The notes under the pieces: model-generated
What the model saw: only the letters and a program-made list of their open reading frames with translations
What the model was told of the DNA's origin: nothing
Database searches by the model: none
Translations under genes and position numbers: made by a program
Origin: a virus
Taxonomy: Duplodnaviria > Heunggongvirae > Uroviricota > Caudoviricetes
DNA: 5,043 nucleotides
Virus record (IMG/VR): IMGVR_UViG_2671180454_000012
Strand: one strand, 5' to 3'
Shown here: piece by piece, positions 1,180-3,047 of the stretch
Layout of the letters: each line of letters opens with the position of its first letter
Position numbering within the stretch: the first letter of the stretch is position 1

Positions 1180-1950
1180 TCATGAAGAAATCGCTCTGAC
1201 CATTCCGCGATAATCCAGAGCAGCAACGCCAGCATCAATGCGGACCTTCCAGGCCACACCGTCAACAATAAAGCCCTCCTGCTGCTCAAGGTAAGGCTCG
1301 TCATTACCGTCAAGATAAGCCACCTCAATTGTGTCCGTTCCCTGTGCTGAAAGCATGTACCATTGCTTATCACTGACTTCATCAAGGCGGGGATCGACAA
1401 TAATATCCAGTTGTTTGTGGTACGGGTTATATGAACCACTGTTTGTATCGGCACCGAAAGGCGTGGTTGAGTTAACCATTTGCAACGCTCTGTCTTCCAG
1501 AGCCGCAGGAACAAGAAGGAATTTTGGCACAATATTCAGCACCTCACCGTTTTCATCCCTCTGTGTGCGCATTGCACGGCGTGCAATGCCAAGCCCTGTA
1601 GTGCTGACTCCGTTATCAATATCATTTCCGTGTTTTTTGCTGAACAGCGGTATACCGTCAGAAAGCTTTGTGTTTCCTGTCAGCACCAGATGAACCAGAT
1701 TACCCACCGTTCTGGCGGCTGCTCGCCCCATTGCCTGTGGGATAACTGTTAACTGATTCAGGTCATCGTTAATAATCGCCTGTCGGGTAATGCTGAAAAT
1801 ATTTCCGTAAGTTGCCAGCGCGATTGGTTCGCCACGGTCACTGGTGGTGATGTATTTATATTCCGCGCCTTCCGGCACTTTGTTTAATGTAGAGAAGCCA
1901 TTCAGGCCAACACGACGTGCCTCATGGAAGTTTGACAATGAACCTTTTTT
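1180..1950 (-). CDS. Major capsid protein, C-terminal portion (HK97-type assignment from position after the prohead protease), in the -1 frame relative to the protease ORF; no start of its own
   Basis: The frame is open from 1992 to TGA at 1180-1182 and reads as a globular protein with no ATG or SD at its 5' end. It is contiguous with the protease ORF if the frame shifts by -1 at the A6 run (1945-1950). Fused protease-capsid genes are known in HK97-like prophages. Confidence 0.7.
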   Translation of the reverse strand, partial: KKGSLSNFHEARRVGLNGFSTLNKVPEGAEYKYITTSDRGEPIALATYGNIFSITRQAIINDDLNQLTVIPQAMGRAAARTVGNLVHLVLTGNTKLSDGIPLFSKKHGNDIDNGVSTTGLGIARRAMRTQRDENGEVLNIVPKFLLVPAALEDRALQMVNSTTPFGADTNSGSYNPYHKQLDIIVDPRLDEVSDKQWYMLSAQGTDTIEVAYLDGNDEPYLEQQEGFIVDGVAWKVRIDAGVAALDYRGMVRAISS

Positions 1951-3047
1951 CGTCCACTGGCGGAACGTTTCGCCGCTGTGTTCACGGATTTTTCAGCACC
2001 ACCAGCAAGGATATAAGTAAAATCGCTGCTGCTGTGGGTGAATGCCGCGTTTACTATCTGCGAGCGTGTGCTGTAGCTGCCTGTGCTTATGCCGCGATGG
2101 GTTAATGATGCCTGTGCCATATCGAAAAGGCTCATCATGGCGTAAGGGTTGCCGCGTTCTGCCTGTTCATGTCCCAGACGCGCATTAAGCCCCTGACGCA
2201 TTGCATCGCCGGTTATGTTGCCGTTATCCGTGTACGCGTAGTAAAGATTTGCGGGGGTGGTTTTGTTTGTCGGTGTCGATTCTTTACCCATAGTGAGTAA
2301 AAGGCGTTCGCGTGCATCCTCAACGCTACAGCCTGAATCAGCAAGACAACTTATAGCCAGGTCGTTATATCTTCCATTGAACGTGCCAAACAATTCACGT
2401 ATCCCGTTGAGTCGTTCCTGTTCTCCGCTGCCAGTTTTCTGGCTGATCATGCTTTTAATATTTTCCGGCATATTCGAAAAATCTCCGATTCGTTTTGATT
2501 CAATTCTGGCCATTGCTGTAATCGCGGGTATAACCTCATCTGCGAAGCCATTAGCCTTACACTCATTGCCATCCATCCAGGTTTCCGCCTCCATCATGGC
2601 GGTGATTTCCTGTTTGCTCCTGCCCGTTCTTCCGGCGTAGGTTTCCGCCATCGTGTCGCCCAGCTTGTCCATCAGGTCAGCAAAGCGGCGAACGTCGCCC
2701 GACACTCCGGCAGTAACACCACGGGGGGCATGTATCATCATCATCGCGTTTTCAGGCATAACGATGTGATCGCCACACATGGCAATAAACGAGGCCATAG
2801 AAGCCGCCATGCCTTCAATGTGTACAATTTTCTTTGCCGGATGATTTTTCAGGGCGTTATAGATAGCCAGCCCTTCAAAGATGTCGCCACCAGGTGAATG
2901 GATGCGAAGATGGATTTCAGGCACATTACCGCACGCGTTGATCTCGTCAGTAAGTGCCGATGCTTTTACACCGTACCCGCCGATCTCGTCATAAATGCGT
3001 ACATGTACAACATCAGCCATAGCCTTAATGGAAAACCATGTTTTCAT
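1902..3047 (-). CDS. Prohead maturation protease (ClpP / S14-type serine protease fold) with a C-terminal extension that runs into the capsid region; zero-frame product 381 aa
   Basis: ATG at 3045-3047 preceded by AGGAG with a 7-nt spacer. ClpP-type motifs are visible: IHSPGG, and the active-site serine context GMAASMAS. The frame ends at TGA 1902-1904, 14 codons after the A6 run. Confidence 0.85.
   Translation of the reverse strand: MKTWFSIKAMADVVHVRIYDEIGGYGVKASALTDEINACGNVPEIHLRIHSPGGDIFEGLAIYNALKNHPAKKIVHIEGMAASMASFIAMCGDHIVMPENAMMMIHAPRGVTAGVSGDVRRFADLMDKLGDTMAETYAGRTGRSKQEITAMMEAETWMDGNECKANGFADEVIPAITAMARIESKRIGDFSNMPENIKSMISQKTGSGEQERLNGIRELFGTFNGRYNDLAISCLADSGCSVEDARERLLLTMGKESTPTNKTTPANLYYAYTDNGNITGDAMRQGLNARLGHEQAERGNPYAMMSLFDMAQASLTHRGISTGSYSTRSQIVNAAFTHSSSDFTYILAGGAEKSVNTAAKRSASGRKKVHCQTSMRHVVLA

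What the first reader, a model, noticed from the sequence alone, without database searches (positions are those of the whole stretch)
1936..1995. Protease-capsid reading frame breaks at an A6 run that forms the dnaX-type slippery heptamer A_AAA_AAG
The protease ORF (zero frame) reads ...GGA CGA AAA AAG GTT... (plus 1944-1950 reverse-complemented) and stops 14 codons later at 1902. The capsid frame is open only in the -1 frame, from 1992 to 1180, and has no start of its own. A -1 slip on A_AAA_AAG, the heptamer used for programmed frameshifting in E. coli dnaX, would give one protease-capsid polyprotein of roughly 620 aa. Three explanations remain: a programmed frameshift setting the ratio of truncated to full-length product; a real 1-bp deletion in an ancestral A7 run (pseudogene); or a homopolymer error in a draft assembly. 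No upstream SD-like stimulator or strong downstream hairpin is visible, and the break falls inside the capsid domain, so an indel is at least as likely as programmed slippage.
Basis: partly seen in the sequence, partly recalled or inferred. Interest (0 to 1): 0.7.

Follow-up and report, generated by a model that had tools for sequence, protein, structure and literature searches.

The report
Capsid gene broken by 13-bp deletion
In this Shigella sonnei phage-satellite remnant, a fixed 13-base deletion splits the fused protease-capsid gene, and the nearby "slippery" A-run is an ordinary Lys-Lys codon pair that only looks like a frameshift signal because of that deletion.

Summary
The sequence facts are correct. 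On the minus strand a 381-aa ClpP-like protease ORF (3047..1902) contains A_AAA_AAG (1950..1944) in the dnaX phase, and the capsid frame is open from 1992 to 1180. The frame does not break at the A-run. Intact orthologues carry the same A6, read as ACG AAA AAA GGT (T-K-K-G). These are the 629-aa E. coli proteins and a 626-aa S. sonnei allele, all [quoted passage not shown], NCBIfam NF045540. The window instead lacks 13 nt (GCTTGCCGGATGG in the locally identical intact locus L016) between positions 1984 and 1983, 33 nt upstream of the heptamer. Its capsid frame already encodes the conserved EHSGETFRQWTKK before the A-run. The window is 100% identical to S. sonnei genomes. The exact truncated protein occurs in three finished-size chromosomes and at least 1000 contigs, so this is a real, fixed mutation and not an assembly error. 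No A7 ancestor exists. No upstream SD-like stimulator or downstream hairpin is present (z about -0.3). None of 120 homologue clusters has a two-frame arrangement. Verdict: an ordinary frameshift pseudogene in a decaying, IS-ridden satellite. The heptamer is coincidental and at most allows about 0.3-4% leaky frame restoration to an altered protein.

The parts
1902..3047 (-). Truncated ORF (381 aa). It comprises the ClpP-like prohead protease (residues about 15-175), a scaffold-like linker, the first 25 residues of the capsid domain, and a 26-codon out-of-frame tail.
   Evidence: ORF list. Pfam CLP_protease E=3.7e-33. The exact sequence is named 'protease/scaffold protein [Shigella sonnei]' and is on at least 1000 contigs.
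1983..1984 (-). Junction of the 13-nt deletion, which is the true frame break. Intact alleles have GCTTGCCGGATGG (L016, L015) or GCTTGCAGGCTGG (L001, L002) here, encoding (V)LAGW(E). Placement is ambiguous by one G.
   Evidence: DNA alignments. The intact S. sonnei protein P0003 reads AEKSVLAGWEHSGETF. All 30 listed E. coli rows span 214 nt against 201 nt of query.
1902..1982 (-). Out-of-frame tail of the protease ORF (NTAAKRSASGRKKVHCQTSMRHVVLA*). The same DNA in the capsid frame encodes conserved capsid residues.
   Evidence: Translations in all three frames.
1944..1950 (-). A_AAA_AAG heptamer. In the intact gene it is ACG AAA AAA GGT (T-K-K-G). The upstream deletion alone puts it in the slippery phase.
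   Evidence: KK occurs only in satellite-type alleles. Phage-type homologues have TRT, TRS or TKT.
1180..1992 (-). Open capsid frame (270 codons plus stop). From 1983 downstream it is homologous to the C-terminal 271 residues of the intact fusion protein. The annotated 252-aa ORF starts at TTG 1938.
   Evidence: Pfam Phage_capsid_4 E=2.8e-52, profile positions 26-262 of 262. EHSGETFRQWTKKGSLSNF is identical to P0003.

Best explanation
The locus is a frameshift pseudogene of a single-ORF 'ClpP-like prohead protease / major capsid protein fusion' gene (NCBIfam NF045540). The gene is carried by a degraded P4-primase/PICI-type phage satellite inserted upstream of clpS in Shigella sonnei.

A 13-nt deletion removed codons for LAGW, four codons plus one nucleotide, 25 residues into the capsid domain. 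This is window position 1984|1983 on the minus strand. Ribosomes now read 26 wrong-frame codons and stop at 1902. The remaining capsid coding sequence sits in the -1 frame.

The A6 run 33 nt downstream is ancestral and encodes Lys-Lys. The deletion merely shifted the reading phase so that it spells A_AAA_AAG. It is not a programmed recoding signal.

Shown here: the deletion, its position, its presence in many independent assemblies, the A6 in intact alleles, and the absence of stimulators.

Inferred: loss of capsid function, and at most a low-percentage adventitious -1 slippage.
For: 1. Intact E. coli orthologues are single 1890-nt ORFs annotated as fusion proteins. An intact 626-aa S. sonnei allele exists on 113 contigs (P0003) and scores 863 bits against NF045540, cut-off 475.
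2. The DNA alignment shows a 13-nt gap in the window and the same A6 in L001, L002, L015 and L016. L016 matches the window on both flanks of the gap.
3. The window's capsid frame encodes EHSGETFRQWTKK upstream of the A-run, identical to the intact protein. The frames therefore switch at the deletion, not at the A-run.
4. All 120 homologue cluster representatives have exactly 17 residues between AEKSx and GSLSNF, following L[AKT]GW[EQ]xS[GS]ETF[RQ][QK]WT[KR][KTS]. The window's protease frame has 13 unrelated residues there. Most of these columns are invariant in a 12-sequence alignment that goes down to 63% identity.
5. The window is 100% identical to S. sonnei GCA_000815825.1. The 1880-2060 stretch is exact in 12 loci, including CP000038.1 (named Ss046) and CP010829.1. 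The exact 381-aa protein is on at least 1000 contigs and in 2904 index blocks.
6. The 44 and 84 nt downstream of the heptamer fold no better than shuffles, z = -0.30 and -0.27. The 30 nt upstream contain no 4-nt or longer match to the SD core.
7. The element is otherwise decaying. The primase is split by an IS3-family IS, IS21 and IS1 insertions occur nearby in some genomes, and the related element in L002 has an internal stop in SSB.
Against: - The heptamer really is the most shift-prone motif class known for E. coli and it is in the correct phase. Its -1 frame runs open to the natural capsid stop, so some frame restoration is mechanistically expected.
- The deletion allele is by far the commoner one in S. 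sonnei assemblies and shows no further disabling mutation in the two ORFs. S. sonnei is a recent clone, so this says little about selection.
- No expression data were available.
Confidence: 0.93

Rival explanations
1. Programmed -1 ribosomal frameshifting on A_AAA_AAG (dnaX type) sets a ratio of truncated protease-scaffold to full-length protease-capsid polyprotein.
For: An in-phase A_AAA_AAG exists and the -1 frame is open to the capsid stop. A_AAA_AAG is the dnaX shift site and among the most shift-prone heptamers in E. coli (PMC5009743, PMC4066793).
Against: - The two-frame arrangement exists only in the S. sonnei deletion allele. Every listed E. coli orthologue and all 120 homologue clusters are single-frame.
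- The same species also has the intact single ORF.
- There is no SD-like stimulator and no hairpin.
- The slip product would lack 15 conserved residues (L356-T370) of the capsid domain.
- Phage-type homologues lack the A-run altogether.
Confidence: 0.02
2. Adventitious compensatory frameshifting, a 'leaky pseudogene'. A small fraction of ribosomes slip -1 at the fortuitously phased heptamer and make a 622-aa variant fusion protein that still has some biological activity.
For: - The best V_VVA_AAG heptamers give about 0.3% frameshifting without stimulators, and at most about 3.7% with the best 3' context (PMC4066793).
- Frameshifting on C_AAA_AAA compensated 1-nt deletions in pDEST17 constructs (PMC1851650 abstract).
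- 'Savior indel' cases are reviewed in PMC5009743.
- The hypothetical 622-aa product still matches Phage_capsid_4 at 177 bits, against 187 bits for the intact protein.
Against: - The yield would be a few percent at best.
- The replaced segment is nearly invariant across the family.
- By weak alignment to Mu gpT-type capsid structures, the segment lies near the N-terminus of the mature capsid protein.
- The satellite's primase is IS-disrupted, so the element probably cannot replicate anyway.
Confidence: 0.04
3. A sequencing or assembly artefact: a homopolymer miscall or a local misassembly in a draft genome.
For: The window is a draft scaffold with a 152-N gap at 3486-3637.
Against: - The same sequence is in chromosome-size records and many independent assemblies and in four IMG/VR contigs.
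- The lesion is a 13-nt deletion in non-repetitive sequence, not a homopolymer length change.
Confidence: 0.005
4. A 1-bp deletion in an ancestral A7 run created the frameshift.
For: None beyond the position of the run near the ORF overlap.
Against: Intact alleles at 89-96% DNA identity all have A6, and the intact S. sonnei protein reads WTKKGS. With A7 the intact gene would itself be out of frame.
Confidence: 0.003
5. The truncation is tolerated, or even useful, because the 381-aa protease-scaffold product alone still acts on a helper phage's procapsids, for example as an interference factor.
For: - The ClpP-like domain and linker are untouched.
- The allele predominates in S. sonnei.
- A lambdoid prophage with a 62%-identical phage-type fusion gene occurs in S. 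sonnei. L007 shows terminase, portal and a ClpP/capsid fusion, and P0143 is such a protein.
Against: - There is no direct evidence.
- Predominance is explained equally well by clonal descent.
- The rest of the element is decaying.
Confidence: 0.07

Closest known systems
ClpP-like prohead protease / major capsid protein fusion protein (NCBIfam NF045540 scaf_prot_MCP1; PHROG 133), found in E. coli/Shigella lambdoid prophages and satellites
   Same: The intact S. sonnei allele P0003 (626 aa) scores 863 bits against a cut-off of 475. It has the same domain order: Clp_rel_HeadMat, then linker, then Phage_capsid_4. It is 92% identical to the 629-aa E. coli proteins.
   Different: In the window the gene is interrupted by a 13-nt deletion and is a pseudogene split into 381-aa and 252-aa ORFs.
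E. coli dnaX programmed -1 frameshift signal (A_AAA_AAG with an upstream SD-like element and a downstream stem-loop)
   Same: An identical heptamer in the correct phase.
   Different: There is no SD-like element, no downstream structure beyond shuffles, and no conservation of the two-frame layout. The phase is a by-product of an upstream deletion.
Compensatory frameshifting over indels (pDEST17 C_AAA_AAA rescue of 1-nt deletions, PMC1851650; 'savior indels' reviewed in PMC5009743)
   Same: A frameshifting indel lies close to a lysine-codon slippery run that could return some ribosomes to the original frame.
   Different: It is untested here. The expected yield without stimulators is only about 0.3-4% (PMC4066793). 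The restored protein would carry 11 wrong residues in place of 15 conserved ones.
Shigella genome decay through pseudogenes and IS expansion (title and abstract of PMC7373316)
   Same: A frameshifted gene lies beside IS3-family, IS21 and IS1 insertions within the same element.
   Different: Nothing unusual. This is a typical instance.

Membership tests
dnaX-type programmed -1 ribosomal frameshift site | Slippery X_XXY_YYZ heptamer in the zero-frame phase | tested here: met
   A_AAA_AAG at 1950..1944 (-), ORF offset 1097, phase 2.
dnaX-type programmed -1 ribosomal frameshift site | Upstream SD-like stimulator roughly 10 nt 5' of the heptamer | tested here: not met
   The 30 nt upstream (CACAGCGGCGAAACGTTCCGCCAGTGGACG) contain no 4-nt or longer piece of TAAGGAGGT (read directly).
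dnaX-type programmed -1 ribosomal frameshift site | Stable downstream stem-loop or pseudoknot | tested here: not met
   The 44-nt fold gives -8.8 kcal/mol, z = -0.30. The 84-nt fold gives -20.6 kcal/mol, z = -0.27. In each case 68-74 of 200 shuffles fold at least as well.
dnaX-type programmed -1 ribosomal frameshift site | The two-frame arrangement and motif are conserved among orthologues | tested here: not met
   Of 120 homologue cluster representatives, none has a two-frame arrangement and all have the 17-residue in-frame segment. All listed E. coli hits are single annotated ORFs. Phage-type homologues lack the A-run.
dnaX-type programmed -1 ribosomal frameshift site | Both zero-frame and trans-frame products are made at a set ratio | not testable with these tools
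   This needs a reporter assay or mass spectrometry.
ClpP-like prohead protease/major capsid fusion protein (NF045540) | Whole-protein score above the curated cut-off as a single polypeptide | tested here: not met
   The intact allele P0003 passes at 863 bits against 475. The window encodes it only as two ORFs in different frames, so the window copy is a pseudogene of this family.
Frameshift pseudogene | An indel that is not a multiple of 3 relative to intact orthologues, with homology continuing in the other frame exactly at the indel | tested here: met
   A 13-nt gap at 1984|1983. The flanks are identical to L016. EHSGETF... resumes in the -1 frame.
Frameshift pseudogene | The lesion is reproducible in independent sequencing projects, so it is not an artefact | tested here: met
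   Twelve loci match exactly over 1880-2060. At least 1000 contigs carry the exact truncated protein. This includes chromosome-size records.
Phage satellite (PICI / P4-primase type) | A small integrated element with integrase, regulator and primase-replicase plus a capsid-related gene, and no tail or lysis genes | tested here: inconclusive
   The related E. coli element L001 has integrase, HTH regulators, an Icd-like gene, DUF4222, a D5-type primase and the ClpP/MCP fusion, with no tail genes in 8 kb. The S. sonnei copy has an IS-split primase. SatelliteFinder-style classification was not run.

The most novel reading that the evidence does not exclude
The 13-nt deletion and the pre-existing A6G run together act as an accidental 'indel plus compensatory frameshift' pair. 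A few percent of ribosomes slip -1 at A_AAA_AAG and make a 622-aa protease-capsid variant. This low dose has been kept in the dominant S. sonnei lineage because it still matters in encounters with lambdoid phages that carry the homologous fusion gene.
Probability: 0.03. Interest if true: 0.4.

Novelty: already known. Interest (0 to 1): 0.08.

Why it matters
It matters little biologically. This is one more decayed gene in an IS-ridden mobile element of a genome known for pseudogene accumulation.

Its value is methodological. A textbook slippery heptamer in the right phase, at the overlap of two ORFs that clearly belong together, is not evidence of recoding. One alignment to an intact allele showed that the motif is an ordinary Lys-Lys pair, re-phased by a deletion 33 nt upstream.

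The result also records that the split 'protease/scaffold' and 'prophage protein' ORFs named in S. sonnei records are two halves of one pseudogene.

Tried and rejected
- **Structure of the intact protein.** An AlphaFold2 model of homologue P0039 with a 12-sequence alignment had mean pLDDT 42, and the capsid part was below 50. It was unusable, so no fold search was run.
- **PDB sequence searches.** The profile search found only ClpP chains for the N-terminal domain. The capsid part alone gave weak matches (E about 0.002-0.005) to Mu gpT-type capsid proteins 9jod and 8rkc. This is enough only for a rough inference that the deleted segment lies near the mature N-terminus.
- **DNA of the intact S. 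sonnei allele.** A variable-gap pattern found only four deletion-allele contigs in IMG/VR and nothing in JGI metagenomes. No complete E. coli genome is closer than 83.5% over the capsid-half query 1180-2100. The gap sequence therefore comes from L016 and L015, which are 96% identical overall. L016 is identical on both flanks of the gap.
- **Rfam.** The search gave only spurious miRNA-family hits on the iteron field.
- **Transcriptional slippage.** I set this aside from general knowledge that much longer A/T runs are needed than A6. It was not tested.

Full report
**1. What is in the sequence**

On the minus strand an ATG-initiated ORF runs from 3047 to 1902 (381 aa). Its N-terminus is a ClpP-like protease (Pfam CLP_protease, E=3.7e-33). 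Near its end it reads GGA CGA AAA AAG GTT. AAAAAAG therefore sits at 1950..1944 in the X_XXY_YYZ phase, followed by 13 sense codons and TGA at 1904-1902.

The -1 frame is open from 1992 to the stop at 1182-1180. It matches Pfam Phage_capsid_4 (E=2.8e-52), but only from profile position 26 onward. A -1 slip would give a 622-aa product with the junction ...SGRKK|GSLSNFHEARR....

One detail needs qualifying. The capsid frame does have a TTG at 1938, and Ss046 annotators used it for a 252-aa ORF. Nothing shows that it is a real start.

**2. Where the frame really breaks**

E. coli complete genomes hold orthologues at about 89% DNA identity. The listed ones are annotated as single 1890-nt ORFs named [quoted passage not shown].

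I aligned two of them (L001, L002) and two closer alleles (L015, L016; 96% identity) to the window. Three points follow.
- All four carry the same A6, TGG ACG AAA AAA GGT TC, read as W-T-K-K-G.
- The window lacks 13 nt, 33 nt upstream of the heptamer.
- L016 matches the window on both flanks of the gap...GCTGAAAAATCCGT[GCTTGCCGGATGG]GAACACAGCGGCGAAACGTTCCGCCAGTGGACGAAAAAAGG....

In window coordinates the junction is 1984|1983 on the minus strand, ambiguous by one G.

The window's capsid frame reads *KIREHSGETFRQWTKKGSLSNF. It therefore encodes the conserved EHSGETFRQWTKK before the A-run. This places the frame switch at the deletion and not at the run. There was never an A7.

**3. Provenance, and whether the lesion is real**

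The window is 100% identical, outside its N-run, to Shigella sonnei GCA_000815825.1. It is 99.96-100% identical to the chromosome-size records CP000038.1 and CP010829.1. One search names CP000038.1's strain as Ss046.

The evidence for a real lesion is as follows.
- The 181-nt stretch 1880-2060 is exact in 12 independently obtained loci, including four IMG/VR contigs.
It is named "protease/scaffold protein [Shigella sonnei]".
- An intact 626-aa S. sonnei allele also exists (P0003 on 113 contigs, and P0006). In the 381-aa cluster alignment it matches the window's two halves and reads ...AEKSVLAGWEHSGETFRQWTKKGSLSNFHEARR....

The deletion is thus a real polymorphism, nearly fixed in sequenced S. 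sonnei. It is not an assembly error.

**4. Comparative test of programmed frameshifting**

A search of 5.8 billion protein clusters with P0003 gave 2724 homologues. In all 120 best cluster representatives, the segment between AEKSx and GSLSNF is exactly 17 residues. It follows L[AKT]GW[EQ]xS[GS]ETF[RQ][QK]WT[KR][KTS]. None shows a two-frame arrangement.

In a 12-sequence alignment reaching 63% identity, L356, G358, W359, S362-F366, W369 and T370 are invariant. A slip product would replace 15 residues (LAGWEHSGETFRQWT) with 11 unrelated ones (NTAAKRSASGR).

The Lys-Lys pair, and with it the A6, exists only in the satellite-type alleles. Phage-type homologues have TRT, TRS or TKT at that position.

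All 30 listed rows of a 201-nt query across the site span 214 nt in E. coli genomes, which is the 13 extra nt.

**5. Signal anatomy**

The 30 nt upstream of the heptamer hold no 4-nt or longer piece of the SD core. The 44 and 84 nt downstream fold at -8.8 and -20.6 kcal/mol. These give z = -0.30 and -0.27 against dinucleotide shuffles.

AAAAAAG occurs 7 times in the window against 1.6 expected, mostly in terminator-like runs.

A6G pre-exists as ACG AAA AAA GGT. Any upstream indel that advances the reading frame by one nucleotide turns it into CGA AAA AAG. Given a frameshifting indel, the "dnaX phase" is roughly a 1-in-2 outcome.

**6. Mechanism and residual possibility**

The best-supported account is a frameshift pseudogene. 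Translation of the former fusion gene now ends at 1902, and the capsid part is not made.

Some adventitious -1 slippage is mechanistically likely. A_AAA_AAG is among the most shift-prone motifs in E. coli (PMC5009743). Measured values without stimulators are about 0.3%, and at most about 3.7% with the best 3' context (PMC4066793). Slippage on lysine runs has been shown to rescue nearby 1-nt deletions in expression constructs (PMC1851650).

Any full-length product here would be rare and mutated in a near-invariant segment. A weak alignment to Mu gpT-type capsid structures (9jod, 8rkc) maps query residue 109 to chain residue 69. By extrapolation the segment falls around residues 17-33 of the mature capsid protein, which is my inference only.

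The Pfam capsid domain of the intact protein spans residues 331-623.

**7. Context**

The gene belongs to a small integrated element.
- The related E. coli copy (L001) has integrase, HTH regulators, an Icd-like gene, DUF4222, a D5/P4-type primase and the fusion gene, with no tail or lysis genes.
- That is the layout of a PICI/P4-primase-type phage satellite (compare PMC10085698). I did not run a formal classifier.
- In S. sonnei the element sits directly upstream of clpS.
- Its primase is split by an IS3-family insertion. IS21 or IS1 insertions flank it in some genomes.
- The window ends at 5043, just inside the primase C-terminal fragment.
- A related E. coli element has an internal stop in its SSB gene.

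This is the usual picture of decay in Shigella mobile elements (compare PMC7373316).

**8. Comparison with known systems, and verdict**

The locus resembles the dnaX signal only in the heptamer. Three of the four testable defining features fail. It is a pseudogene copy of a curated family, NF045540.

Novelty: none. Both the family and the split ORFs are already in public annotation. Interest is low.

The one reading not excluded is a biologically meaningful leaky rescue, to which I give about 3%.

**9. What did not work**

The AlphaFold2 model was unusable, with pLDDT 42. Rfam gave only spurious hits.

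Noticed in passing
window 1047-1175 and 3663-3791 (gene-sense strand is minus): A module of about 95-130 nt is repeated immediately after the capsid stop and after the SSB stop, at 71-85% identity. It has a terminator hairpin with compensatory changes (GGCGGCAGCAGCCGCC versus GCCGGAGCAATCCGGC), then the conserved CCTCCTGGTGGGGGnGGCCTGTCCACGGGGCGGG, then a second small hairpin and a T-run. 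It has no Rfam match. Similar sequence occurs in 956 of 5426 complete E. coli genomes, at up to 7 places per genome, mostly unannotated (10 of the 12 rows listed). It could be a conserved 3' UTR, small RNA or regulatory module of these satellites and prophages.
   Followed up: partly
window 4515-4760: An iteron field. There are 8 exact and 2 one-mismatch copies of GGTGAACAG in both orientations in this field. Across the whole window that is 12 matches against 1.1 expected. The field is AT-rich and lies between the 81-aa ORF and the primase C-terminal fragment. It is probably the satellite's replication origin. The spurious Rfam miRNA hits fall here.
   Followed up: partly
window 3486-3637: The run of 152 N corresponds to only 53 nt (aaatgctttcgggaacgttccggcgtcgaacaaaaaacaacctaattcgacac) in finished S. 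sonnei genomes. It is therefore a scaffold gap of arbitrary length, not masked sequence of true size.
   Followed up: yes
window 4774-5043 (-) and L003 2893-4049: The 89-aa ORF at the window's right end is the Pox_D5 C-terminal piece of a D5/P4-type primase. In the genomes read here the primase is split by an IS3-family insertion (HTH_Tnp_1 plus rve), and the window ends about 55 nt (window 5043 = L003 4104; IS ORF ends 4049) beyond the IS transposase ORF. Some genomes also have IS21 or IS1 plus an extra integrase between the element and clpS.
   Followed up: partly
window 1-106 versus 107-640: Only the first roughly 106 nt match nearly all E. coli genomes (5425 of 5426 genomes; at least 99% in the listed rows). 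They are annotated there as yljB, just upstream of clpS. The satellite's right boundary or attachment site should therefore lie just after position 106.
   Followed up: partly
L016 about 1710 (equivalent to window about 2832): The otherwise intact 96%-identical allele in Logan contig SRR26924129_888 has its own 1-nt loss in the protease domain (GGCAAAGAAAAT becomes GGCAAAAAAAT, creating an A7). The gene is called there as 101 aa plus 543 aa. It is either an independent frameshift or a read error in that assembly.
   Followed up: no
L007 4801-9161: In one S. sonnei draft contig the satellite is followed directly by lambdoid head genes: a GpA-type terminase fragment, a lambda-type portal, and a phage-type ClpP/capsid fusion of more than 675 aa. 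The phage-type homologues in the protein search are about 62% identical to the satellite's gene. This is a candidate helper-phage type for the satellite family.
   Followed up: no
window 3044-3271 (-), 640-921 (-), 4225-4470 (-): Three small ORFs of 75, 93 and 81 aa have no Pfam or NCBIfam match. Each is a full-length member of a PHROG of unknown function (phrog_4934, phrog_1561, phrog_1231). The 75-aa ORF's stop codon overlaps the protease start codon by 4 nt.
   Followed up: partly
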